Sequence record: MK373792.1
DNA: 64,000 bases
Direction: 5' to 3' (one strand)
From: Escherichia phage vB_EcoS_VAH1
Within the stretch, counting starts at the first letter, position 1. Every line of letters begins with the position of its first letter. Below the pieces are notes generated by a model, which worked only from the letters and a program-made list of their open reading frames with translations, did not search any database and was not told where the DNA came from. Positions 17,969-51,462 of the stretch are shown here, piece by piece. The position numbers were made by a program, and so were the translations under genes.

Positions 17969-18347
17969 AACGACAAGTAAAAGAACTAGAGCTATTAGTA
18001 CGTTGAGTAGTTATCTCACCACGTTTGCTAACAGTAACAGCCGGAGTAGAGAAGTTTTTATTAGTATATATTTCTACTTTGCCGTTACGTTCCTTAACAT
18101 CACGCACTTTACCATATTCAGTAATGATGCCATTTTGTTGGACTTTAACATTCCCGTTTTTCATAAAAACTTTAGTAGATGCTAGAGAACTGAAACTAAC
18201 TGCCGAAACCATCAGTGCAATAATAAACTTATTCATCAGTATCTTCCTCACTACAGTCACGGCATACATCATAATCATTGAAGGAATGTTCATGAGCTTC
18301 ACACCACCAAGAACAAGAATCACAGAGGAATATTTCGGTTTTCTCAA
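17937..18347 (-). CDS. secreted protein (signal peptide; start probably internal MNKFIIAL)
   Basis: Hydrophobic signal-like segment ending ...SLAS. Confidence 0.4.
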   Translation of the reverse strand: MRKPKYSSVILVLGGVKLMNIPSMIMMYAVTVVRKILMNKFIIALMVSAVSFSSLASTKVFMKNGNVKVQQNGIITEYGKVRDVKERNGKVEIYTNKNFSTPAVTVSKRGEITTQRTNSSSSFTCRYDCDFEGEDE

Positions 18348-18510
18348 GTGCTTGGCCTAAAAGATCATCAGCTTCCTCAGCAGTAATCTTCAACCCACAT
18401 ACATCTGCCACACGTTCTTTAATTAAGCGACCTGCCTCATGATAAGACATACAGGTTCCAACAACACTATGCTCGACAACGTGAATAGCACAGTCTAGAC
18501 GAGTTTTCAT
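18229..18510 (-). CDS. Cys-rich hypothetical protein
   Basis: CDSCSWWC...CRDC; preceded by promoter cassette and GAGAGAGG RBS. Confidence 0.45.
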   Translation of the reverse strand: MKTRLDCAIHVVEHSVVGTCMSYHEAGRLIKERVADVCGLKITAEEADDLLGQALEKTEIFLCDSCSWWCEAHEHSFNDYDVCRDCSEEDTDE

Positions 18511-18540
18511 TTCAAACCTCTCTCATCAATTTATAAATAT

Positions 18541-18569
18541 ATTATAACAAGAAAAGAGAGGTTTAGCAA
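18541..18569 (-). promoter_or_regulatory. T5-type early promoter (one of ~20 minus-strand cassette copies)
   Basis: Minus strand TTGCTA - 17 nt - TATAAT, leader AUAAAUUGAUGAGAGAGG then ATG of 18229..18510. Confidence 0.6.
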
Positions 18570-18586
18570 ATGAATTATTTCAGAAA

Positions 18587-18934
18587 TTAGTCGTAGCACC
18601 ACCATAACCCACGCTTACGCATGTCATGATCGCGATTATAGTCGTAATTTTCTGGATCTTTCATCACGCGGTGGAGTTCTTGACGATTTCCTTGACGAAC
18701 CATTTTATTAGAGTGCCACTTAACATTCTTACTAACAGAATTCCAGCTATAACCATCCTTTTTCTCATTACGAATGGTTGCTTCTTCCATTTCCTGTTCT
18801 ACCTCATCCCAGGATTTAGCATAAGTAACACGAATGTAGTAGCCACTTGCTTTGAGGAAAGTATATCCCTGGGTGTAATTAGCTTTAGACTTCCACCACT
18901 GATCACCAGATTGTTTACGATAAGTACGGCTCAT
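18587..18934 (-). CDS. hypothetical basic/aromatic protein
   Basis: 115-aa ORF. Confidence 0.4.
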   Translation of the reverse strand: MSRTYRKQSGDQWWKSKANYTQGYTFLKASGYYIRVTYAKSWDEVEQEMEEATIRNEKKDGYSWNSVSKNVKWHSNKMVRQGNRQELHRVMKDPENYDYNRDHDMRKRGLWWCYD

Positions 18935-19055
18935 ATTACCTCCATTAAGTCTTTTGAATTAACCTAATGTGGGTGAATTTTATTATACATAAATTATTTA
19001 CCTGTATATAGAAAAACCCCAGACTACTTATTCAATAGCTGGGGTTTGTTATTAA

Positions 19056-19370
19056 TTACAGATCGGGGCGTTCATCTTCGAAACAGCCTGAGCTAATATC
19101 TTCTCCGAATCCTACGAAGCCATCAAATTCATCATTTGAAATACCCATAATCATTGCTTCCATTTTTCTAATCTCCGAAATTTTCATGCCTGCTTTACTA
19201 TTCTTAAAGTGTTTGCGAGGATTCCCGCACATCCAACAAGAACAGATACAAGGAGTAGTAGTGATAATACCTAACCGTTTAGGGCTTTCTTCATGTGGGA
19301 AGACTGTCCAGTATTTCTTGCGGTTGTTCTTCACACGTTGCCGGTGATGACGTCTTAATGCTCGATCCAC
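19056..19370 (-). CDS. Cys-rich hypothetical protein
   Basis: TPCICSCWMCGNP cluster. Confidence 0.4.
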   Translation of the reverse strand: MDRALRRHHRQRVKNNRKKYWTVFPHEESPKRLGIITTTPCICSCWMCGNPRKHFKNSKAGMKISEIRKMEAMIMGISNDEFDGFVGFGEDISSGCFEDERPDL

Positions 19371-19451
19371 ACATTTCTCCTAAAACTTGGGAGATAAATG
19401 GAGTTTGCTCGACTACCTCATGTAGTTCGGAGAAATCGTACCCAAACCCCA

Positions 19452-19821
19452 TTACATCGCCTGAGTAAATGTACGACTAATAACGTCGTTCTGTTGTTCA
19501 CGCGTCAGTGCGTTAAAACGTACAGCGTACCCTGAAACACGAATGGTTAACTGAGGGTATTTTTCAGGATGTTTCTGTGCATCCAAAAGCTGATCACGAC
19601 TTAACACATTGACATTTAGGTGTTGACCGCCTTCAATTTGAGGGGCGACTTCCACCTTGACTTCACGAAAGGATTCGGGGTCAAAATGGGGTGTAATACC
19701 TTCTAGATCTTCAACTAGAACTTTTTGTTTAAGTTCACCATCTTTAGAATATAATTGGATAATCTGATTATTATGAACAATATTAATTACGCCAGATTTA
19801 AGATTTTGGTACGCTTTCATT
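19452..19821 (-). CDS. autonomous glycyl radical cofactor (GrcA/YfiD-like)
   Basis: [11 protein letters not shown]...[21 protein letters not shown] matches E. coli GrcA including RVSGY; start moved to ATG ~19821 (AGGAG RBS) because track start overlaps a tRNA. Confidence 0.8.
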
Positions 19822-19834
19822 AGATCTCCTGTTT

Positions 19835-19910
19835 GGTAGTTAGTAGTGGATTTGAACCACTGTAGTCGCTCCGTATGAAGGAGGTGCATAACCACTCTGC
19901 CAACTAACTA
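19835..19910 (-). tRNA. tRNA-Met type (anticodon CAT)
   Basis: Acceptor AGTTAGT/ACTAACT, T-arm AGTGG-TTCAAAT-CCACT, loop TTCATAC, encoded CCA. Confidence 0.6.
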
Positions 19911-20005
19911 TTATGTTTTACTAGGCTAAGTAAGTATTCTTTATACTCTTTAGACCAACTAGCTTTTTTAAACTTTCCTGGACGCATAGTCTTAATTCCT
20001 AGATT

Positions 20006-20082
20006 TGGTGCTCCGGGAGGGATTTAAACCCCCGATCTCTCGGTTATCAGCCGAGTGCTTTAGATCGCTAAGCTACCGAAGC
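20006..20082 (-). tRNA. tRNA-Ile (anticodon GAT)
   Basis: Anticodon arm CTCGG-CTGATAA-CCGAG; T-loop TTTAAAT; CCA encoded. Confidence 0.6.
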
Positions 20083-20097
20083 ATTAAAATATTTACA

Positions 20098-20388
20098 TCA
20101 CATACTGTCTAGGTAAGAAGTATAATGGAATTTAGTTTCTCCAGTCTTATCTACTTCTACCTCAGTTCGTGGTACTTGACGAACCACACCATGAATTATC
20201 TTATAACGGATGCCTTTAGCTGGTTCATGATCTTTTGGAAATACTTGTTTAACCGTCACTACTTTATATTCTTCACGCGGTGTTAACACTACTACTTGAT
20301 CACCTTCTTTGATTTTCCAAGAAGATGGAAATTCATAGGTATACCTTTGGCCACCAGTTTGGAATACTACAGAAAGATAACGTTTCAT
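20098..20388 (-). CDS. hypothetical protein
   Basis: 96-aa ORF with promoter cassette at ~20395-20460. Confidence 0.4.
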   Translation of the reverse strand: MKRYLSVVFQTGGQRYTYEFPSSWKIKEGDQVVVLTPREEYKVVTVKQVFPKDHEPAKGIRYKIIHGVVRQVPRTEVEVDKTGETKFHYTSYLDSM

Positions 20389-20418
20389 TTGGTTTCCCTC
20401 TCATTAATTTATATAAAT

Positions 20419-20447
20419 ATTATAACAAGAAATAAGAGAGAATGCAA
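20419..20447 (-). promoter_or_regulatory. T5-type early promoter
   Basis: Minus strand TTGCAT - 17 nt - TATAAT before 20098..20388. Confidence 0.55.
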
Positions 20448-20463
20448 ATGAATTTTTAAATTT

Positions 20464-20537
20464 GGTGCTCCCACCAGGAATCGAACCCGGTTCAGATGCT
20501 TACAAGGCAACTGCATCGCCAGCAATGCTTTAGGAGC
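20464..20537 (-). tRNA. tRNA-Thr (anticodon TGT)
   Basis: Acceptor GCTCCTA/TGGGAGC, T-arm CCGGG-TTCGATT-CCTGG, loop CTTGTAA. Confidence 0.55.
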
Positions 20538-20704
20538 GATAATCCCGTTATTTCAACGGGATTTCTTTTTCAATAACAGGAGACTTATCAGTCATAACTG
20601 TCATAGCCAACTGCTGAAGAAACTCGAAAGTTAGCTTTAAGCGTTCTTCGCCTAATTCAACCTCAACGTATTTCTTTTGTTTGTCAACCCTTAATTTTAG
20701 GTTA

Positions 20705-20926
20705 TCAGCCATCTTCGGATTCTCGTTGCTCGGCTACTGCTAGCCAGTCTGGTAAAAGAAACTTAGTACGAAACTCTTCATACGTTTCTTCTGGATAAAA
20801 GCTAAAACCCCCTTTCTCATCATTCAAGATAACAGAGCCGTCAGTTTGTTCATATGCTCGATAGGTTTCCCCAATAACAATAACTCGTTTATCGGTACTT
20901 TTATTACGAAACTCAAAAACGTGCAT
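20705..20926 (-). CDS. hypothetical protein
   Basis: 73-aa ORF between tRNAs. Confidence 0.35.
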   Translation of the reverse strand: MHVFEFRNKSTDKRVIVIGETYRAYEQTDGSVILNDEKGGFSFYPEETYEEFRTKFLLPDWLAVAEQRESEDG

Positions 20927-20942
20927 AACGTTTCCTTAAAGT

Positions 20943-21018
20943 TGGAGCGGCTAGAGGGAATCGAACCCTACTCAGCGAGGCTTGGAAGGCCTGCGACACA
21001 ACCCGTGTGCTTAACCGC
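20943..21018 (-). tRNA. tRNA-Gly (anticodon TCC), tentative
   Basis: Acceptor GCGGTTA/TAGCCGC, T-loop TTCGATT, loop CTTCCAA. Confidence 0.5.
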
Positions 21019-21026
21019 TTATTGTT

Positions 21027-21104
21027 TGGCAGGGGATATTGGATTTGAACCAATGATCTCGACTTCAAAGGCCGAAGCTTTAGGCCAAGCTAAGCTAATC
21101 CCCA
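21027..21104 (-). tRNA. tRNA-Gln (anticodon TTG), tentative
   Basis: Anticodon arm TCGGC-CTTTGAA-GTCGA; T-loop TTCAAAT; 1-72 mismatch. Confidence 0.5.
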
Positions 21105-21110
21105 ATTGTT

Positions 21111-21186
21111 TGGCAGAAGGTAGTGGATTCGAACCACTGATCAGGATTTCAGAGACCCCAGCCTTAACCGACTTGGCTAACCTTCT
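21111..21186 (-). tRNA. tRNA-Gln (anticodon CTG), tentative
   Basis: Acceptor AGAAGGT/ACCTTCT, T-arm GTGG-TTCGAAT-CCAC, loop CTCTGAA. Confidence 0.45.
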
Positions 21187-21745
21187 TCTTAATACTTTTT
21201 GGATCTTTACCTGTTAAGGATTTATAGCGTTTACGTAGTCCGTTATCGGATAATCCTAACTCTTTTGATGCTTTAACCCATGAATAGTTTATTACCCAAT
21301 ATTCTATTTGCTCTGCTGTAATATCAGGGCTACTCTTTGGTTTACAATCAAAACAAGTTTTAGATGAAGAATTTATTTGTTTATTACAATTAGGGCATTT
21401 ATTACCGCCTATTGTATGCCCTCTTTCAACTGTAGTTTTTATTCTATGATCTTGCTTGGTCATGACTACTAGATTATCTAAGGAAAAATTCAATTTATTC
21501 CTATCTTTGTGATCCACTTCTAGCTCAGACTCTAGCGAAGGTAGATCTTTAAATACTCTAGCTAGTAATCTATGTAATACAATAGAGACATTCTTTCCCT
21601 GCTCATAGAATGTTACAAAAGGATACCCTGCACTACCTAAATGATGCGTAAGTAATTTATTACTCTTGGTAGAGTAAACTTCTCCATATGGAGAGATTAA
21701 GTATTCAGGGTATTCCGGAATTGCTTTGAAATTCTCTAATTTCAC
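21164..21745 (-). CDS. HNH homing endonuclease with C-terminal module shared with 28692..29375
   Basis: HRLLARVF...EVDHKDRNKLNFSLDNL HNH core; C-terminal ~45 aa near-identical to the 28692 ORF. Confidence 0.7.
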   Translation of the reverse strand: MKLENFKAIPEYPEYLISPYGEVYSTKSNKLLTHHLGSAGYPFVTFYEQGKNVSIVLHRLLARVFKDLPSLESELEVDHKDRNKLNFSLDNLVVMTKQDHRIKTTVERGHTIGGNKCPNCNKQINSSSKTCFDCKPKSSPDITAEQIEYWVINYSWVKASKELGLSDNGLRKRYKSLTGKDPKSIKKKVSQVG

Positions 21746-21746
21746 C

Positions 21747-21986
21747 TTAGTCTACAGCGTCTGGTTCTGCTGGCTGAGATACAGCAGGCTGTTCTAGTGT
21801 ATCTGGTGCTGATACAGAGAAAAGAGCTTGTAATGCTGCAATATCACGCTCGTAAGTATCAATACGAGTAGTAAGAGTATCTACCATCTGTTTATGATAG
21901 GCTAAGTTATTCTGAGATTCATCTCGAAGAGTTTGCAGTTCTGCAAGACGTGTTAACATAATTTCACTAATTAAAGCATTACTCAT
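21747..21986 (-). CDS. small coiled-coil protein
   Basis: 79-aa ORF. Confidence 0.35.
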   Translation of the reverse strand: MSNALISEIMLTRLAELQTLRDESQNNLAYHKQMVDTLTTRIDTYERDIAALQALFSVSAPDTLEQPAVSQPAEPDAVD

Positions 21987-22176
21987 TTGTTTCTCCTAAA
22001 TTTTCCGGTTCTTCTAAACGTTTGCCTTCATGATCTACTCGAATAACTCCGCATCCTTCGCAAATCACAACTGCACCATAACCTTCTTTGACTTCGGCTT
22101 CTGTAATCAAACCAGAAAGATCACCAGTATCTTTACCCCACATATCAATGGAGCATTGTTTGCAGAAATCAGCCAT
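21979..22176 (-). CDS. small zinc-ribbon-like protein
   Basis: CKQC...CEGC pairs. Confidence 0.35.
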   Translation of the reverse strand: MADFCKQCSIDMWGKDTGDLSGLITEAEVKEGYGAVVICEGCGVIRVDHEGKRLEEPENLGETNE

Positions 22177-22839: not shown

Positions 22840-22929
22840 TGGCAGAAGATAATGGAGTCGAACCATCACCGTATCACTACAGCGGGCTGGTTTTCAAGAC
22901 CAGTTACGTACCACTACGTCCTATCTTCT
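22840..22929 (-). tRNA. tRNA-Ser (anticodon TGA), type II
   Basis: Acceptor AGAAGAT/ATCTTCT, arm CTGGT-CTTGAAA-ACCAG, long variable arm, T-loop TTCGACT. Confidence 0.6.
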
Positions 22930-27469: not shown

Positions 27470-27544
27470 TGGTGCACCCTGTTCGAATTGAACGAACCTC
27501 TCAAGCTCTTCAGGCAAGCGCTAATCCATCTCAGCTAAAGGTGC
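27470..27544 (-). tRNA. tRNA-Phe (anticodon GAA), tentative
   Basis: Acceptor GCACCTT/AGGGTGC, T-arm GTTCG-TTCAATT-CGAAC, loop CTGAAGA. Confidence 0.45.
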
Positions 27545-27713: not shown

Positions 27714-27801
27714 TGGTGGGCGTTAATGGAGTCGAACCACTCGAGTCGCAATGACCAGGGATTTACAATCCCCTCCGCTACCACTTACGGAATAAACGCC
27801 C
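27714..27801 (-). tRNA. tRNA-Tyr (anticodon GTA), type II
   Basis: Perfect acceptor GGGCGTT/AACGCCC, arm GGGGA-TTGTAAA-TCCCT, long variable arm, T-loop TTCGACT. Confidence 0.6.
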
Positions 27802-29398: not shown

Positions 29399-29476
29399 TG
29401 GTGGCTCCCCGAGGATTCGAACCTACGTACCTTCCAGTTATGAGCTGGGTGCTCATACCATATGAGCTTGAGAACC
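29399..29476 (-). tRNA. tRNA-Met type (anticodon CAT); third CAT tRNA, could be the Ile2 (lysidine) species
   Basis: D-arm GCTC...GAGC, arm CCCAG-CTCATAA-CTGG, T-arm GTAGG-TTCGAAT-CCTCG. Confidence 0.55.
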
Positions 29477-33669: not shown

Positions 33670-33745
33670 GTTATCCAGTTCTTACCGACCGTAGGATTCG
33701 AACCTACATCTTCCACCAGTTACGGCTTGATAATACCAATTATAC
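33670..33745 (-). tRNA. tRNA-like element, identity unresolved
   Basis: T-arm GTAGG-TTCGAAT-CCTAC; acceptor GCCGTCC/GGTCGGT with one mismatch; no clean anticodon arm; no CCA. Confidence 0.3.
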
Positions 33746-34029
33746 TAGGACGGCAGTGTTACTACATAAGTGATTTCCACACCCCACTATCAGTAAATTA
33801 GAGAAGAGTTTAGGGGAGAGGTTTCAGACGCCTCATTTTACACGTTCTAGCCACTAACCGGGATTGCCGCCCCCTGTGTACTAGTTTTACAACTAACCCA
33901 CCGACTCTATTCAACGAATCTTAGTGCTCGACGCATCTTACATTAAGACAAGTTCAGCGTAATCGGCTCGCTGTTCCCTAATTTATGAATATATTATACA
34001 GAATTTAAAGGCATTTAGCAAATAAATTT

Positions 34030-46059: not shown

Positions 46060-46731
46060 ATGGTAAGAAAGAAAATAACTACAGAAGATGTGAACTTAGC
46101 ACTTGCTCCCAGAGGAATAATTATGCTAAGCACGTATATATCAGCTAAATCCAATGCTATATTTAAGTGCTCTAATGGGCATAGTTGGGAGGCTAGAGTA
46201 GATAATGTAAAAGGTGGGAGAGGTTGCCCTTATTGTGCTAGTCGTACTTTAGATCTTAAAGAGGTAAATGAATCCTTAGCTGCTCGTGGAATAAAGATGG
46301 AAGGTAAATACATCAATTCTAAGAGTAAAATTATGTTCAGCTGTGAGAATAATCATAGGTGGGAGTCTACACTTGATAGTGTTAGAAACCATAGTTCTGG
46401 TTGTCCTATATGTTTATTAGAGAAGGATAATTATCCTACTAACGTATATATTTTAATAAGTAATGTGGGAACCAAAATAGGAGTGTCTAGCAGAACTAAA
46501 GATAGACTCAGAGATATTAAAACTTCTTCTAACATACATGATTTAAAAATATTTAAGGAATATAGCTTTTCAGATAGATCAAAAGCTATACGTATTGAAA
46601 GAGAGGTCCATTTACAGTTTAAGGAATATAATTGTCAGTACAAAGATTTTGATGGTGCTACAGAATTTTTTAATATTGAGCCAGAAGTAGTAGCAAGGTT
46701 TATTGAGGAAATAATTAATGACAGAGAATGA
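46060..46731 (+). CDS. zinc-ribbon repeat + T5orf172 (GIY-YIG-like) protein
   Basis: CSNGHSWE...GCPYCA and CENNHRWE...GCPIC ribbons; C-terminus matches 888..1268 and 14690..15301. Confidence 0.6.
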   Translation: MVRKKITTEDVNLALAPRGIIMLSTYISAKSNAIFKCSNGHSWEARVDNVKGGRGCPYCASRTLDLKEVNESLAARGIKMEGKYINSKSKIMFSCENNHRWESTLDSVRNHSSGCPICLLEKDNYPTNVYILISNVGTKIGVSSRTKDRLRDIKTSSNIHDLKIFKEYSFSDRSKAIRIEREVHLQFKEYNCQYKDFDGATEFFNIEPEVVARFIEEIINDRE

Positions 46732-48544
46732 ATTAATTGAGAATTGCAAAGGTCTGCTCACTCTAACTGCGGATAAGGACTTACAGCATAATAATGCTAA
46801 TAAGCCTAGTGAGATGTTCCATACTCAAAGAGACTTATTAGCTGGGGAAATTAACAAGTATTTAGTATCGCAAGAATTACCTAAACACCTGTTAGACGCA
46901 CATAATCTAGGTAAAATACACATTCATGACATGGACTACAGAGCACAAGGGTACACCAACTGTTGCTTAGTAGATCTAGGCGGTATGCTGAAAAATGGCA
47001 CTAAAATTGGTAACGCAAATATTGAAACTCCTAAATCCATAACTACTGCATGCGCGATTACTGCTCAGATTATTGCTCAAGTATCGGGTGCTCAGTATGG
47101 TGGCACTTCTATTGATCGTATCGATGAGGTTTTAGCCCCCTATGTCAGAAAGTCTTATGATAAGCACCTGGGTCGTGGTCTACGTTGGCTCAAGGATGAA
47201 AGGAAAGCTGCTGTATATGCTACTGAACTTACTGAAAAAGAGTGTTATGATGCATTCCAAGCCCTAGAGTATGAAACTAATTCATTATTTAACTCTAACG
47301 GACAGACTCCTTTTGTTACGCTTGGCTTTGGGCTAGGACAGGGGTGGGAGGAAAGGATGATTCAGAAAGCCATCCTCCAAAACCGTATTAAAGGTTTAGG
47401 TGCTGCTGAGTCAACCCCTATCTTCCCTAAACTAGTATTCTCAGTTAAAGAAGGGTTAAATAAAAATCCAGGCGATCCTAACTATGATATAAAACAGCTA
47501 GCACTTGAGTGTTCTGCTACCCGTATGTACCCGGACTATTTAAGTTACGAGAAAGTTGTAGCTGTTACTGGTGATTTTAAAGCACCTATGGGTTGTCGTA
47601 GTTTTTTATCCGCTATTCCTTCTGGGGAAACTGCCGGCCGTAATAATCTGGGTGTAGTGTCTATTAATCTACCTATGGTTGCTGCTGAGGCAGATGGGGT
47701 TTTTGAAGATTTCTGGGATATTCTGGACAAATATGTGGATGAGGCTTTTGAAGCTCATGATTTTTTCTTGGATAGACTTAAGAAAGTGAAGGCTAAACAA
47801 GCCCCTATTCTTTATATGCACGGTGGTTTTGGTGTGCGTTTAGATGGGGAAGAGTATGTATGGCCAATTTTTGAGGGTAGATCTTCTGTATCTCTTGGGT
47901 ATATTGGGGTCTATGAGATGTGCCAAATAATGTTTAGTTTACCGCAGACTCATAGGGACTGTATTGAATTTACAGAGGAAGTTCTTACTCACCTAAAAAA
48001 TCGTTGCGAAGTTAAAGCTAATGAGACTAATCTTGGGTTTAGCTTGTATGCTACTCCTAGTGAGTCTCTATGTAATCGCTTTAATAAACTACTGGAACGT
48101 AGGTTCCCTGAGTATTCTTGGCTAACAGATAAAGGCTATCTCACTAATAGTCATCATTTGGACGTAAGGGAGAAGGTAGCTCCGGATACTAAATTTGAGT
48201 ATGAAGCTCATTTCACCAAAATAGCTAATGGTGGTAATATATCGTTTGTGGAACTACCACAAATGAAAAAGTTCCATAAAGCTCTTGAATACGTAGTAGA
48301 TAAGGGATTAGAATGTAGCCATTATATTGGTGTTAATATACCAATTGATGAGTGCTTCAACTGTGGGTATATGGGTGAATCTGTTGCCTCTGAACGTGGG
48401 TTTGTATGTCCAAGTTGTGGGTCTGAAGAAATAGAGGTTACACGTAGGGTTTGCGGGTACCTGGGATCCCCGGGCAGTAGGCCTTTCAATTCTGGGAAAC
48501 AAAAAGAAGTGCTTGGTAGAGTAAAACACTTAAATCTTAAGTAA
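46718..48544 (+). CDS. nrdD: anaerobic ribonucleoside-triphosphate reductase (class III)
   Basis: C-terminal CFNCGY...CPSCGS zinc ribbon and RVCGY glycyl-radical motif. Confidence 0.88.
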   Translation: MTENELIENCKGLLTLTADKDLQHNNANKPSEMFHTQRDLLAGEINKYLVSQELPKHLLDAHNLGKIHIHDMDYRAQGYTNCCLVDLGGMLKNGTKIGNANIETPKSITTACAITAQIIAQVSGAQYGGTSIDRIDEVLAPYVRKSYDKHLGRGLRWLKDERKAAVYATELTEKECYDAFQALEYETNSLFNSNGQTPFVTLGFGLGQGWEERMIQKAILQNRIKGLGAAESTPIFPKLVFSVKEGLNKNPGDPNYDIKQLALECSATRMYPDYLSYEKVVAVTGDFKAPMGCRSFLSAIPSGETAGRNNLGVVSINLPMVAAEADGVFEDFWDILDKYVDEAFEAHDFFLDRLKKVKAKQAPILYMHGGFGVRLDGEEYVWPIFEGRSSVSLGYIGVYEMCQIMFSLPQTHRDCIEFTEEVLTHLKNRCEVKANETNLGFSLYATPSESLCNRFNKLLERRFPEYSWLTDKGYLTNSHHLDVREKVAPDTKFEYEAHFTKIANGGNISFVELPQMKKFHKALEYVVDKGLECSHYIGVNIPIDECFNCGYMGESVASERGFVCPSCGSEEIEVTRRVCGYLGSPGSRPFNSGKQKEVLGRVKHLNLK

Positions 48545-49138: not shown

Positions 49139-49328
49139 GGGTTTAAACGCCGCTTTGGAAAACGCATTAATGCAGCACTGGGAAACTGGCTATAAGGATG
49201 GTGTTGAATCCTGCGCTACTATGCTAGAAGTTATTGCTAATACCTTAATGGAGAAAGGCAATAAAGAATTAGCTGAGCTATTAGACAGTATTGGGCAAAA
49301 CTTCAGAGAACAGGTGAAAAATGCGTAG
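49107..49328 (+). CDS. hypothetical small protein
   Basis: 73-aa ORF. Confidence 0.35.
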   Translation: MAFSKPMLPDKGLNAALENALMQHWETGYKDGVESCATMLEVIANTLMEKGNKELAELLDSIGQNFREQVKNA

Positions 49329-50136
49329 ATTAATTGTTATTAGCGGTGCAGGTTTGAGTGTTGAAAGTGGTGTACGAGCTTTTCGTACTGATACTGCTAG
49401 TGGTAAAGCATTGTGGGATGATTATGACTTAGAAGAGGTATGTAATATTCATGCCTTTCGTGGTAATTTTTATCATAAAACCCACACGTTTTACAACAAA
49501 CGTCGTGAAGAGTTAGAAACTGTTGAACCCAATCTTGCACACTTGCGTATTGGTGAATGGTATAAGAAATATCCAGGTCAAGTAGTAAACTTGACTACCA
49601 ACGTTGATGACCTTATTGAGCGTGCTGGCGTTCCACATAGTGACATTCTGCACATTCATGGGTATTTAAAAGAGGTTGTTGTAGCTGATAGCTACAATAG
49701 TAGTAATAAACGAATTATTGATGTTGGGTATAGCTCTATTGACCCAGATGATTATAAATGGGTTAAACCTAATGTAATCTTCTTCGGGGAACATGCTCCA
49801 GCATATGCAGAAATGTACAATGTTTTTGATGGTATTACCAGTCAAGATATGATCATTGTGGTTGGTTGCTCTAACCAAGTAATTAACTTCTACTGGGAAT
49901 TATTTCCTGTTCTTAATCTGACTGCTGCAAAACTTATGGTAGTTAACTACTATGATAGTGCTCTAGCGGTGGAACCAGGCTATCAAGGTATGACTCGTAG
50001 TGAGATGTACCAGCTGGAAGAACGTGGTATCCCTTACTGGAGTAAAGGTGCGATAGATGCTTTCAATGATCCTGATTTTATTGCTCGTGTAGAAGCTCAT
50101 TTAGAGGGTAGACCTTATGTGTCGGGAAATAAGTAA
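49321..50136 (+). CDS. Sir2-family (sirtuin-like) NAD-dependent protein lacking the zinc-ribbon cysteines
   Basis: GAGLSVESGVRAFR, TTNVDDLIERAG, LHIHGYL, PNVIFFGE, IIVVGCSNQV in sirtuin order. Confidence 0.65.
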   Translation: MRRLIVISGAGLSVESGVRAFRTDTASGKALWDDYDLEEVCNIHAFRGNFYHKTHTFYNKRREELETVEPNLAHLRIGEWYKKYPGQVVNLTTNVDDLIERAGVPHSDILHIHGYLKEVVVADSYNSSNKRIIDVGYSSIDPDDYKWVKPNVIFFGEHAPAYAEMYNVFDGITSQDMIIVVGCSNQVINFYWELFPVLNLTAAKLMVVNYYDSALAVEPGYQGMTRSEMYQLEERGIPYWSKGAIDAFNDPDFIARVEAHLEGRPYVSGNK

Positions 50137-50629
50137 TACTCCAATTATTTTTCTAGATATTGATGGGGTGCTCAATTCGAGCATCTCCCACCATCATGCG
50201 CCTGATGATGAAAAGATTTTCTTTGGAAGTGACTGGGTTTTCAAACCGCTTCTCAAGGCTTTTCAGGACTTTATTCGTCCTTCTCCAATAATGATTGTTG
50301 GGGTATCTTCATGGTTCTCTGTCAGGAATGAGATGGAGAACGTTCAGATTATGACCGGATTAGATCTTATCGATCGTTTTCTAGGTACAACGGATTTTAC
50401 TGGTGGTGGGCTATCTAGGGGTAATTCTGTTCTTCGCTTCGTTGAAAAGCATAAGCTCAAACATTGGTGTGTGCTGGATGACGCTGGTGCTATGATGTAT
50501 CAGTATCCAACGGTTATAGTCAACGGTAGAACTGGAATAAATCTTCAAGATTTAAGAGCTGTTAGCTATATGTTAGAATTTAGTCCAGATCTTGAAATGT
50601 GTAAAGCCCTACAACAATTTAAGGTATAA
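50117..50629 (+). CDS. HAD-superfamily phosphatase-like protein
   Basis: IIFLDIDGVLN (DxDG motif I) near N-terminus. Confidence 0.5.
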   Translation: MCREISNTPIIFLDIDGVLNSSISHHHAPDDEKIFFGSDWVFKPLLKAFQDFIRPSPIMIVGVSSWFSVRNEMENVQIMTGLDLIDRFLGTTDFTGGGLSRGNSVLRFVEKHKLKHWCVLDDAGAMMYQYPTVIVNGRTGINLQDLRAVSYMLEFSPDLEMCKALQQFKV

Positions 50630-50631
50630 AT

Positions 50632-51060
50632 ATGTTCAATAATGTATTCTCTAAAGAAGCTAACCCAATATTGGTTAATTTTTGGCGTACTCTTCCAGCC
50701 AACCTGTACAATGAGGCTATTAATGCTCTGAAAATATGGTGTGAGAATAATGAAATCTCCTTTGCTTTTAAGGGTGAGATTGAAGAAGCTCCCTGTATTG
50801 GTTTAATTGTGCAGGTAGAGGATGGTCTGGAAGAGATTGTCGGCTGGAAAGAGTTGGATGAAATGGGGTTGGTTTTTGCATTAAACTATAAGCTATTTAT
50901 GCCCAATAAACACCGTATTGTTGTTAATTATAAAACCAGTGAATCTCCGGGCTTTCAAGTTAATGAACATTACGGTTGGTCTTACTCACCGGAAGAAGTA
51001 AATGATGGTATCCAGAAACTTCGTCGTTTTGGTTATCAAATTCCTGGTTTAACCGCCTAA
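50632..51060 (+). CDS. hypothetical protein, tandem paralog A
   Basis: Shares EEAPCIG...W.EL.EMGL..ALN..LF.P pattern with 51070..51462. Confidence 0.45.
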   Translation: MFNNVFSKEANPILVNFWRTLPANLYNEAINALKIWCENNEISFAFKGEIEEAPCIGLIVQVEDGLEEIVGWKELDEMGLVFALNYKLFMPNKHRIVVNYKTSESPGFQVNEHYGWSYSPEEVNDGIQKLRRFGYQIPGLTA

Positions 51061-51069
51061 GGGGGCACA

Positions 51070-51462
51070 ATGGAACAAGTATATTGGCGTCAGATTGATC
51101 CTAGTTTGGTGAAGCGTGCGGAGAAGCTGCTACAACGTTGGTTGGGGGTAAGACAAGCTTCCTTCACTTTTCCGGAGCAGCAAATAGACGATCCCTGTAT
51201 TGGTGTTTTCCTATCAGGCTACGCTAGGGAATGGGAACTGGATTGGAATGAATTGTCTGCTATGGGTTTAATTGTTGCACTAAATTTCTCTTTGTTCCAT
51301 CCACGTGGTTTTGCCATATGTTGTGTGCCTGATGATGGTTGTTCGCCCCATCTTTTACAGGTGGAAGATGATATTTGGGAGTACACTCCAGATATTCTCA
51401 AAGAAGCTAAAGAACAATTAAATCGTGTTGGGATTTATGTTCCAGGCCTGAATGATGAATGA
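51070..51462 (+). CDS. hypothetical protein, tandem paralog B
   Basis: DDPCIG...WNELSAMGLIVALNFSLFHP; paralog of previous gene. Confidence 0.45.
   Translation: MEQVYWRQIDPSLVKRAEKLLQRWLGVRQASFTFPEQQIDDPCIGVFLSGYAREWELDWNELSAMGLIVALNFSLFHPRGFAICCVPDDGCSPHLLQVEDDIWEYTPDILKEAKEQLNRVGIYVPGLNDE

What the first reader, a model, noticed from the sequence alone, without database searches (positions are those of the whole stretch)
19452..19821. Phage-encoded GrcA/YfiD-like glycyl-radical 'spare part' alongside class III RNR
The protein is colinear with E. coli GrcA through the RVSGY radical glycine motif. The window also encodes NrdD (46718..48544), itself a glycyl-radical enzyme with RVCGY. T4 carries a YfiD homolog (Y06I) that can repair oxygen-cleaved pyruvate formate-lyase, so the phage protein may rescue host PFL or a damaged radical domain during infection.
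Basis: partly seen in the sequence, partly recalled or inferred. Interest (0 to 1): 0.6.

Follow-up and report, generated by a model that had tools for sequence, protein, structure and literature searches.

The report
T5 phage GrcA-like PFL spare part
This is the already catalogued T5 phage gene T5.056, a small copy of the radical-carrying tail of the host enzyme pyruvate formate-lyase that most likely repairs that enzyme after oxygen damage; the finding is correct but ordinary.

Summary
It has an exact RVSGYAV glycyl-radical loop with the radical glycine at G97. It hits Pfam Gly_radical (3.6e-18), solved E. coli GrcA/YfiD (1.6e-30) and the PflB C-terminus (5e-27). NrdD at 46718..48544, with RVCGY, is also real.

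The window is a T5-like phage (Tequintavirus). The protein is 100% identical to T5.056, with 10 synonymous and 0 non-synonymous differences. About 436 T5-like records carry it, under names from "acetyltransferase-related" to "autonomous glycyl radical cofactor".

It aligns over its full length with T4 Y06I (53%), the phage protein shown in 2001 to rescue oxygen-cleaved pyruvate formate-lyase (PFL). Its radical domain is 47/59 identical to PflB and 5/59 to the phage's own NrdD. Repair of host PFL is therefore well supported by homology, and repair of NrdD is not.

A complete T5-like genome encodes no activase, so host PflA must install the radical.

In several jumbo phages the homolog sits inside an nrdD-grcA-nrdG operon. 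PFL makes formate, which is the reductant of T4-type class III RNR. This suggests a metabolic link to NrdD, not a structural one; the link is inferred and untested.

Novelty: already known. Interest: low.

The parts
19452..19820 (-). CDS for the GrcA/YfiD-like autonomous glycyl-radical protein (122 aa plus stop). It is the ortholog of T5.056.
   Evidence: ORF list. Pfam Gly_radical 3.6e-18. NCBIfam GrcA 2.5e-35. PHROG 1209 5.8e-48. 100% aa identity to T5.056. 10 synonymous and 0 non-synonymous differences from T5.
19521..19541 (-). Codons for RVSGYAV (residues 94-100), the glycyl-radical loop. G97 corresponds to PflB Gly734.
   Evidence: Read from the sequence. Invariant in the alignments with GrcA, Y06I, PflB and TdcE. 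RVSGYAV is the peptide substrate crystallised on PFL-AE, PDB 3CB8 (PMC10665898).
19826..19829 (-). GGAG ribosome-binding site, 5 nt upstream of the ATG and 4 nt downstream of the tRNA-Met 3' end.
   Evidence: Read directly from the sequence.
19834..19909 (-). tRNA-Met (CAU), immediately upstream on the same strand, with a 13-nt gap to the ATG.
   Evidence: ARAGORN. Rfam tRNA 51.5 bits. Same arrangement in T5.
20006..20082 (-). tRNA-Ile (GAU), in the same transcription unit.
   Evidence: ARAGORN. Rfam. T5 annotation.
20098..20388 (-). First ORF of the unit (96 aa, T5.058 ortholog, function unknown).
   Evidence: ORF list. PHROG 4760. T5 annotation.
20419..20448 (-). Sigma-70-like promoter (TTTGCA, 18-nt spacer, TG, TATAAT), at the position of T5 early promoter P11.
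   Evidence: Consensus scan, 10 of 12 matches with an extended -10. T5 annotates promoter P11 at the equivalent place.
19056..19370 (-). Downstream co-transcribed ORF (104 aa, T5.055 ortholog) with a CICSCWMCGNPR cysteine motif. Function unknown.
   Evidence: ORF list. Motif found. No Pfam or PADLOC hit. PHROG 4499, unknown function.
19010..19047 (-). Rho-independent terminator that closes the unit.
   Evidence: Identical to the T5 sequence at T5's annotated terminator. Unique match in the window. Hairpin of -19 kcal/mol, z = -5.7, followed by a U-run.
46718..48544 (+). NrdD, class III ribonucleotide reductase. It is the second glycyl-radical protein of the phage, lies in a separate transcription unit, and is a possible metabolic beneficiary of PFL-derived formate.
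   Evidence: Pfam NRDD 3e-157 plus Gly_radical. RRVCGYLGS motif with G580. E = 7.5e-177 to chain 1h78, which I recognise from memory as T4 NrdD. The PMGCRSF active-site motif is aligned and conserved only with chain 9d3x, the one residue-level alignment printed.

Best explanation
The gene encodes a phage version of the 'spare part' protein GrcA/YfiD. It is a free-standing copy of the last ~60 residues of pyruvate formate-lyase (PFL), which carry the catalytic glycyl radical, preceded by a divergent ~60-residue N-terminal half.

Proposed mechanism:
1. When oxygen cleaves host PflB at its radical glycine, the phage protein docks into the truncated enzyme.
2. The host activase PflA installs a new radical on the phage protein's G97.
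3. PFL activity (pyruvate + CoA -> acetyl-CoA + formate) is restored.

The gene is transcribed early from a sigma-70 promoter together with tRNA-Ile and tRNA-Met.

Why the phage carries its own copy is inferred. T5 shuts down and degrades the host genome, so no new host GrcA or PflB can be made. Cleaved PFL is rapidly proteolysed. A phage-encoded supply would therefore keep fermentative ATP and formate production going in the microaerobic gut.

Shown here: gene identity, an intact radical loop, the closest similarity being to PFL-type domains, purifying selection, the operon structure, and the absence of a phage activase.

Inferred: activation by PflA, docking to cleaved PFL, and the physiological benefit.
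For: Family assignment:
- Pfam Gly_radical.
- GrcA models are the top NCBIfam hits.
- Solved GrcA/YfiD structure 6owr at 1.6e-30, and PflB residues 698-759 at 5e-27.
- The AlphaFold model's C-terminal half matches the YfiD NMR structure (TM 0.74, 80% identity) and PFL.

Motifs and identities:
- RVSGYAV is exact and is the PFL-AE substrate peptide.
- The C-terminal 62 residues are 49/62 identical to PflB. The proven spare parts GrcA and T4 Y06I are each 48/62.
- Full-length homology to T4 Y06I, 53%. Y06I and YfiD were shown to restore oxygen-cleaved PFL after activation by PFL-AE (PMC8683613; PMC13450708).

Selection and conservation:
- 10 synonymous and 0 non-synonymous differences from T5.
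- About 436 T5-like records carry a copy at >=80% aa identity.

Dependence on host activases:
- No NrdG- or PflA-like gene in the window.
- None in a complete T5-like genome.

Transcription unit: promoter, tRNAs, RBS and terminator.
Against: - No experiment exists for the T5 protein. All functional evidence is by homology to T4 Y06I and E. coli YfiD.
- It scores below NCBI's curated GrcA equivalog cut-off (121.5 vs 170 bits), because its N-terminal half is the most divergent in the family. In YfiD that half matters for binding cleaved PFL and for radical installation. The validated T4 Y06I also fails the cut-off (151 bits), so this is weak counter-evidence.
- The host already has its own GrcA, so the added benefit to the phage is an inference.
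Confidence: 0.75

Rival explanations
1. It is a spare part for the phage's own class III ribonucleotide reductase, replacing the oxygen-cleaved C-terminal radical domain of NrdD.
For: - Phage and window encode NrdD, which is also a glycyl-radical enzyme.
- In jumbo phages the homolog lies between nrdD and nrdG in one operon.
- All glycyl-radical enzymes suffer the same oxygen cleavage. Authors have speculated that spare parts may exist for other members (PMC8683613).
Against: - No BLASTP similarity to the window's NrdD (E=11).
- Motif-anchored identity is 5/59 to NrdD and 47/59 to PflB.
- It lacks the CxxC...CxxC zinc ribbon that precedes the NrdD loop.
- Even the operon-embedded Munch copy is PFL-type. 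Its similarity to Munch NrdD is limited to 26 residues around the loop (E=0.046), whereas it scores 87 bits on the PFL C-terminus model.
Confidence: 0.03
2. The repair mechanism is the same, but the enzyme repaired is TdcE (2-ketobutyrate formate-lyase) or another PFL-like host enzyme, not PflB.
For: - The C-terminal 62 residues are slightly closer to TdcE (51/62) than to PflB (49/62) or GrcA (48/62). The tail [18 protein letters not shown] is TdcE-like.
- The best DNA-level hits in E. coli genomes include tdcE.
- Several database records name the protein '2-ketobutyrate formate-lyase'.
Against: - A difference of 2 residues in 62 is not discriminating.
- PflB is the abundant, constitutively made enzyme, and it is the validated target of both characterised spare parts.
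- TdcE and PflB radical domains are themselves 52/62 identical, so the protein may serve both.
Confidence: 0.1
3. It is a decoy that titrates the host activase PflA, or binds PFL unproductively, to shut down or redirect host fermentation.
For: It carries the exact PflA recognition loop RVSGYAV, and its N-terminal half differs from host GrcA.
Against: - The whole radical domain is nearly invariant among T5-like copies, including regions beyond the loop that pack into PFL. A mere loop mimic would not need this.
- The homologous T4 protein activates PFL and does not inhibit it.
- Free YfiD is reported to be protected from activation unless cleaved PFL is present (abstract of PMC8683613).
Confidence: 0.05
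4. It is a functionless passenger picked up from a host pflB, tdcE or grcA 3' end in a hypervariable tRNA region.
For: - It lies in the accessory tRNA region, which is rich in homing endonucleases.
- It matches the 3' ends of host pflB, tdcE and grcA at about 74% DNA identity.
Against: - 10 of 10 differences from T5 are synonymous.
- It is present in about 436 T5-like records and in 1583 phage records overall.
- Its own RBS and its operon placement are conserved with T5.
- Its nearest relatives are other phage proteins, not host genes.
Confidence: 0.03

Closest known systems
Bacteriophage T4 Y06I (gene vs.6, NP_049730)
   Same: A phage-encoded stand-alone glycyl-radical protein of about 120 aa. 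It aligns over the full length (53% identity, shared MKAYQ start and DPE.F motif, identical [19 protein letters not shown] core). Both belong to PHROG 1209. Y06I has been shown biochemically to restore oxygen-cleaved PFL.
   Different: The T4 radical domain is almost identical to E. coli GrcA (59/62). The T5-type domain is roughly equidistant from GrcA, PflB and TdcE (48-51/62) and closest to jumbo-phage and Vibrio-phage copies (52-53/62). The T5 protein has a few extra residues in the N-terminal half. T4 also carries its own NrdG, whereas a complete T5-like genome carries no activase. The T5 protein has not been tested experimentally.
E. coli GrcA / YfiD (P68066; PDB 6owr)
   Same: Same architecture and size (127 vs 122 aa). 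74% identity over the C-terminal 74 residues. Same radical loop. The predicted C-terminal fold matches the NMR structure.
   Different: The N-terminal ~50 residues are not detectably similar by BLASTP. The protein scores below the TIGR04365 cut-off. Position 82 is Q in T5-like and jumbo-phage copies, where bacterial GrcA and PFL have V, I or M. The gene is phage-encoded and expressed from an early phage promoter within a tRNA operon.
C-terminal glycyl-radical domain of PflB and TdcE
   Same: 49/62 and 51/62 identical residues, including the entire loop around Gly734.
   Different: It lacks the ~700-residue catalytic barrel with Cys418/Cys419, so it cannot be an enzyme on its own. Database names such as 'pyruvate formate-lyase', 'formate acetyltransferase' or 'ribonucleotide reductase subunit' are therefore misnomers.
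Short spare-part forms GrcA2 / GrcA3 (NCBIfam NF008341, NF038360; ~80 aa)
   Same: They match the same C-terminal 60 residues (116 and 91 bits).
   Different: Those families lack the N-terminal half, and the scores here are below their cut-offs (158 and 145 bits).

Membership tests
Autonomous glycyl-radical cofactor / spare-part proteins (GrcA/YfiD/Y06I; InterPro IPR011140 sense, PHROG 1209) | A small stand-alone protein (~120-130 aa) consisting of a glycyl-radical domain without the catalytic barrel. | tested here: met
   The protein is 122 aa. The only Pfam domain is Gly_radical, at residues 62-103. It matches PHROG 1209 over the full length at 5.8e-48.
Autonomous glycyl-radical cofactor / spare-part proteins (GrcA/YfiD/Y06I; InterPro IPR011140 sense, PHROG 1209) | A PFL-type radical loop RVSGYAV with the radical glycine, which is the PflA recognition element. 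| tested here: met
   The loop is exact at residues 94-100 and invariant in a 52-sequence alignment. The peptide RVSGYAV is a PFL-AE substrate.
Autonomous glycyl-radical cofactor / spare-part proteins (GrcA/YfiD/Y06I; InterPro IPR011140 sense, PHROG 1209) | [quoted passage not shown] | tested here: met
   49/62 identical to PflB. phmmer E = 5e-27 to PflB 698-759. Foldseek matches 6owr and 2pfl.
Autonomous glycyl-radical cofactor / spare-part proteins (GrcA/YfiD/Y06I; InterPro IPR011140 sense, PHROG 1209) | An N-terminal half homologous to that of GrcA/Y06I, needed in YfiD for binding cleaved PFL. | tested here: inconclusive
   It aligns with T4 Y06I and stays in register across the family, with Q5 nearly invariant. 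Pairwise BLASTP to E. coli GrcA finds nothing before residue 51.
Autonomous glycyl-radical cofactor / spare-part proteins (GrcA/YfiD/Y06I; InterPro IPR011140 sense, PHROG 1209) | Radical installation by PFL-AE and restoration of activity to oxygen-cleaved PFL. | not testable with these tools
   This needs biochemistry. It has been shown only for YfiD and T4 Y06I.
NCBIfam TIGR04365 'autonomous glycyl radical cofactor GrcA' (bacterial equivalog model) | A whole-protein score at or above the curated cut-off of 170 bits. | tested here: not met
   The score is 121.5 bits, with only residues 50-122 matched. As controls, E. coli GrcA scores 234 bits, while the experimentally validated T4 Y06I scores 151.1 and Munch scores 137.4, both also below the cut-off. 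The protein is therefore not a bacterial GrcA equivalog by NCBI's rule, and that rule also excludes a proven phage spare part.
Pyruvate formate-lyase / formate C-acetyltransferase (as named in many phage records) | The ~750-residue barrel with the catalytic Cys418/Cys419. | tested here: not met
   Only the last 62 of 744 model positions are matched, at 86 bits against a cut-off of 994. The protein is 122 aa.
Class III RNR radical domain (spare part for NrdD) | Similarity to the NrdD C-terminal domain (zinc ribbon plus RVCGY loop). | tested here: not met
   BLASTP E = 11. 5/59 identities when anchored on the motif, and no zinc-ribbon cysteines.

The most novel reading that the evidence does not exclude
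Phage spare-part proteins may belong to an anaerobic dNTP-supply module instead of being a general energy aid. By keeping host PFL alive they would secure formate. Formate is the electron donor of E. coli/T4-type class III RNR (PMC4390871). From my own knowledge, it is also a substrate for PurT-dependent purine synthesis.

This would explain several observations:
- The gene is embedded in nrdD-grcA-nrdG operons in jumbo phages.
- It lies within 3 kb of nrdD and nrdG in another jumbo lineage.
- It lies beside nrdAB or a glutaredoxin-like gene in others.
- T5-like phages keep both it and a T4-type NrdD while relying on host activases.

A bolder sub-variant is that in jumbo phages the co-transcribed NrdG, not PflA, activates the spare part.

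I found no paper in the searchable library that states this link.
Probability: 0.3. Interest if true: 0.5.

Novelty: already known. Interest (0 to 1): 0.22.

Why it matters
If the T5 protein works like T4 Y06I, it is one more case of a virulent gut phage carrying an auxiliary gene that props up host anaerobic metabolism after host gene expression has been shut off. That is useful for correcting the many wrong names of this gene in phage records, which include "acetyltransferase", "pyruvate formate-lyase" and "ribonucleotide reductase subunit". It does not change current understanding.

The one point that could matter more is the recurring placement of such genes next to ribonucleotide reductase genes. 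Together with the known use of formate as the reductant of class III RNR, this gives a testable hypothesis for why phages of facultative anaerobes keep a PFL spare part.

Tried and rejected
1. NrdD repair. BLASTP of the protein against the window's NrdD, a motif-anchored comparison and the same test inside the Munch operon show only loop-level resemblance. Rejected.

2. A phage-encoded activase.
- tblastn with remembered E. coli NrdG and PflA sequences, and with verified jumbo-phage NrdG and E. coli PflA N-terminus sequences, found nothing below E = 0.2 in the window.
- The verified sequences also found nothing below E = 0.4 in the complete T5-like genome C13.
- A CX3CX2C scan hit only the small T5.055-like ORF, which is too small to be a radical-SAM enzyme and has no Pfam hit.

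3. A structured N-terminal domain as a phage novelty. AlphaFold predicted a confident four-stranded sheet for residues 1-36. The control run on a GrcA-like protein gave an equally confident beta-rich N-half, although NMR shows that half of YfiD to be disordered. The difference is therefore not real evidence. Foldseek found no convincing fold match for the N-half.

4. Functional linkage to the downstream T5.055-like ORF. Its homologs occur in T5-likes and in unrelated jumbo phages and have no annotation. No link could be made.

5. Defence or anti-defence role. No PADLOC hit.

6. Literature on the T5 protein itself. Searches for T5-like plus pyruvate formate-lyase, for phage plus autonomous glycyl radical cofactor, and for Y06I found no study of it.

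7. The TIGR04365 cut-off as an exclusion criterion. Rejected as decisive, because T4 Y06I also fails it.

Full report
**The observation**

The minus strand carries an ORF whose ATG is at 19820 and whose stop codon ends at 19452, giving 122 aa.

The mechanically longer ORF starting at a GTG at 19895 runs into tRNA-Met (19834..19909) and is not credible. A GGAG lies 5 nt upstream of the ATG.

The translation ends with ...[45 protein letters not shown] is encoded at 19521..19541 and the radical glycine is G97.

The similarity is far above chance:
- Pfam Gly_radical: 3.6e-18.
- NCBIfam GrcA model: 2.5e-35.
- PHROG 1209: full length, 5.8e-48.
- Solved YfiD/GrcA structure 6owr: 1.6e-30.
- PflB residues 698-759: about 5e-27.

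ORF 46718..48544 is NrdD (Pfam NRDD 3e-157) with RRVCGYLGS and its glycine at position 580.

**Where the window comes from**

The region 18000-22000 is 95% identical to Escherichia phage T5 and matches 482 phage records, mostly Salmonella and Escherichia T5-like phages. The 21 tRNA genes fit the T5 tRNA region.

The gene is the ortholog of T5.056 (YP_006884.1), annotated "putative acetyltransferase-related protein". The two proteins are 100% identical. The two genes differ at 10 nucleotides, all synonymous, which indicates purifying selection.

tblastn finds the protein in 1583 phage records. About 436 of these are at 80% identity or more (T5-likes). The rest are T4-likes (vs.6, about 52%), jumbo phages, and Klebsiella, Enterobacter, Aeromonas, Vibrio and Providencia phages.

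The names in those records range from "pyruvate formate-lyase", "2-ketobutyrate formate-lyase", "formate acetyltransferase" and "ribonucleotide reductase subunit" to the appropriate "autonomous glycyl radical cofactor". The gene and its likely nature are therefore already in the databases.

**Anatomy of the locus**

By comparison with the annotated T5 record, the transcription unit on the minus strand runs as follows:
1. A sigma-70-type promoter at the position of T5 P11 (TTTGCA-18-TATAAT with TG, 20448..20419).
2. A 96-aa ORF of unknown function (20388..20098).
3. tRNA-Ile (20082..20006).
4. tRNA-Met (19909..19834).
5. A 13-nt gap containing GGAG.
6. The GrcA-like gene (19820..19452).
7. A 104-aa ORF of unknown function, the T5.055 ortholog (19370..19056).
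8. A strong intrinsic terminator (19047..19010; -19 kcal/mol, z = -5.7).

NrdD lies 27 kb away on the other strand, in a different unit.

**What the protein resembles**

Against E. coli GrcA, BLASTP aligns only residues 51-122 (74% identity, 4e-39). Against T4 Y06I (vs.6) the alignment is full length (53%), with a shared MKAYQ start and DPE.F motif.

In a 52-sequence alignment of phage and bacterial homologs, the N-terminal halves stay in register. A glutamine at position 5 is nearly invariant there. The block from EGG.H to RTFT is almost invariant. "Colinear with GrcA" is therefore right in architecture but weak in N-terminal sequence.

Identities over the C-terminal 62 residues:

| Compared with | Identical residues |
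|---|---|
| GrcA | 48/62 |
| PflB | 49/62 |
| TdcE | 51/62 |
| Jumbo-phage and Vibrio-phage copies | 52-53/62 |

T4 Y06I, in contrast, is 59/62 identical to E. coli GrcA. The T5-type protein therefore belongs to a phage lineage of its own and is not a recent copy of the host grcA. A Q at position 82 (DAQ) is shared with the jumbo-phage copies, where bacterial proteins have V, I or M.

The AlphaFold model has mean pLDDT 77.8. Its C-terminal half matches the YfiD NMR structure (TM 0.74 on the target) and PFL.

**Which enzyme does it serve?**

The literature held here confirms several points:
- YfiD and T4 Y06I are the two validated spare parts.
- PFL-AE installs a glycyl radical on them.
- They restore activity to oxygen-cleaved PFL.
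- RVSGYAV is the peptide crystallised on PFL-AE (PMC10665898).

The T5-type protein has that loop exactly. It is as similar to the PflB radical domain as the two proven spare parts are (49 vs 48 vs 48 of 62).

By contrast it shows no BLASTP similarity to the phage's own NrdD (E = 11). Anchored on the glycine motif, it shares 5/59 residues with NrdD and 47/59 with PflB. It also lacks the cysteine-rich zinc ribbon that precedes the NrdD loop.

I conclude that repair of host PFL, and possibly of its paralog TdcE, is well supported by homology. Repair of NrdD is not supported.

**Activases**

Neither the window nor a complete T5-like genome (C13, 99.9 kb) encodes an NrdG- or PflA-like protein. That genome does contain the GrcA-like gene (95%) and NrdD (97%). 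It also has no ORF of 80 aa or more with a CX3CX2C motif, apart from the small T5.055-like protein.

NrdG homologs occur in 2271 phage records. No Tequintavirus appeared in a 60-row spread of them; this sample is not exhaustive.

T5-like phages therefore carry two glycyl-radical proteins and depend on the host PflA and NrdG to activate them.

**Why a phage would want it (inference)**

From general knowledge, T5 degrades host DNA early, so no new PflB or GrcA can be made. Cleaved PFL is highly susceptible to proteolysis. A phage-made spare part would preserve PFL flux, meaning acetyl-CoA for ATP via acetate and formate, during oxygen fluctuations in the gut.

**A link to ribonucleotide reductase after all, but a metabolic one**

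Looking at homologs elsewhere gave these contexts:
- In the jumbo phages Munch, K64-1 and a related metagenomic contig, the gene lies between nrdD and nrdG in one operon. In K64-1 an extra DUF4326 gene is also present.
- In a 330-kb metagenomic phage it lies about 2.6 kb downstream of nrdG and 3.8 kb downstream of nrdD.
- In Vibrio phage D479 and another contig it abuts nrdA-nrdB.
- On a 1-kb contig it abuts a glutaredoxin-like gene.
- In T4, Slopekvirus, Aeromonas and Providencia phages it sits among small accessory genes, which in the last three include tRNA genes, as in T5.
- Two further contigs gave no nrd neighbour.

The operon-embedded copies are still PFL-type.

The E. coli, T4 and L. 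lactis class III reductases use formate as electron donor (PMC4390871, citing Mulliez et al. 1995). The window's NrdD is very close to a solved chain, 1h78, that I recognise from memory as T4 NrdD (E = 7.5e-177). In the one residue-level alignment printed (chain 9d3x), it keeps the PMGCRSF active-site motif. From my own knowledge, that Met-x-Cys motif marks the formate type.

PFL is the cell's formate source. The spare part may therefore be kept largely to feed the phage's anaerobic dNTP synthesis. This is an inference from gene context plus known biochemistry. I found no paper stating it. The adjacency to class I genes shows that the association is with nucleotide metabolism in general, and not only with NrdD. 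I give it a probability of about 0.3.

**Controls that removed tempting claims**

- AlphaFold predicted a confident beta-sheet for the N-terminal 36 residues. The same was predicted for a GrcA-like control, whose N-half is disordered by NMR. No structural novelty can be claimed.
- The protein is below NCBI's GrcA equivalog cut-off (121.5 vs 170 bits). The validated T4 Y06I is also below it (151 bits).
- PADLOC gives no hit.

**Verdict**

The alternative (rescue of NrdD) is not supported.

The gene is T5.056, identical in protein sequence to the reference phage and conserved across hundreds of sequenced relatives. It is already known at the annotation level, although it has never been tested biochemically in T5. 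Interest is low. The only angle worth following is the formate/RNR coupling suggested by the jumbo-phage operons.

Noticed in passing
L007:1623-4270 (Salmonella phage Munch); L008:2185-5163 (Klebsiella phage K64-1-like); L022:3181-5840: In jumbo phages the GrcA-like gene is embedded in an nrdD-grcA-nrdG operon. In K64-1 an extra DUF4326 gene is also present. The embedded copy is still PFL-type, not NrdD-type.
   Followed up: partly
L010:656-4372 (Vibrio phage D479); L023:1411-5378; L024:376-993: Other GrcA-like genes lie directly beside class I RNR genes (nrdA-nrdB) or a glutaredoxin-like gene. The association is therefore with nucleotide-metabolism modules generally.
   Followed up: partly
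whole window; L020 and L021 (complete T5-like genome C13): T5-like phages encode two glycyl-radical proteins (NrdD and the GrcA-like protein). No NrdG- or PflA-like radical-SAM activase was found in the window or in a complete T5-like genome, so both proteins must depend on host activases.
   Followed up: yes
window 19056..19370 (-): The co-transcribed downstream ORF (T5.055 ortholog, 104 aa) has a basic N-terminus and a CICSCWMCGNPR cysteine cluster. It has no Pfam or PADLOC hit and matches PHROG 4499 of unknown function. Homologs occur in T5-likes and in some Erwinia, Rhizobium and Serratia jumbo phages.
   Followed up: partly
window 46060..46731 (+): A 223-aa ORF with T5orf172, MUG113 and DUF4379 (treble-clef zinc finger) domains overlaps the start of nrdD by 14 nt. 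It is probably a mobile endonuclease-like gene. T5 annotates no gene at this position, only promoters, and annotates a shorter NrdD (574 aa vs 608 aa).
   Followed up: partly
proteins P0078, P0097, P0099, P0113, P0116 (metagenome assemblies): These 'GrcA' proteins have an enterobacterial GrcA N-terminal half fused to a PflB-type C-terminal half (NVNVMNREMLLDAME...TRTFTQSM). They are either assembly chimeras or gene conversion between grcA and the 3' end of pflB.
   Followed up: no
model m536304342b76 residues 1-36; control model m72cc2ee61d3b residues 1-57: AlphaFold predicts a confident beta-rich N-terminal half both for the T5 protein and for a GrcA-like control, although that half of YfiD is disordered by NMR. 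This may be the conformation adopted when bound to cleaved PFL or PFL-AE.
   Followed up: partly
L018:2663-3222 (Aeromonas phage avDM5); window 19834..19909; L017:1234-1310; L019:925-997: In four phage lineages (T5-like, Aeromonas Biquartavirus, Klebsiella Slopekvirus, Providencia Priunavirus) the GrcA-like gene lies downstream of a tRNA-Met, at distances from 13 nt to 1.5 kb. This is probably a feature of accessory tRNA regions, but it recurs.
   Followed up: no
window 29402..29476 and 33683..33754 (-): Rfam calls two extra tRNA-like elements that ARAGORN did not list. Conversely, three ARAGORN calls have no Rfam match above threshold: tRNA-Ser 22840..22929, tRNA-Tyr 27714..27801 and tRNA-Phe 27470..27544... 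the last is in fact matched by Rfam at 27473..27544, so only the Ser and Tyr calls lack a match. T5 annotates tRNA-like 'stable RNAs' in this region.
   Followed up: no
window 49321..51462 (+): Downstream of nrdD there is a cluster of a Sir2-family protein, a HAD_SAK_2 (RNA-repair-associated HAD) protein and two DUF7415 proteins. It corresponds to T5.102-T5.107.
   Followed up: no
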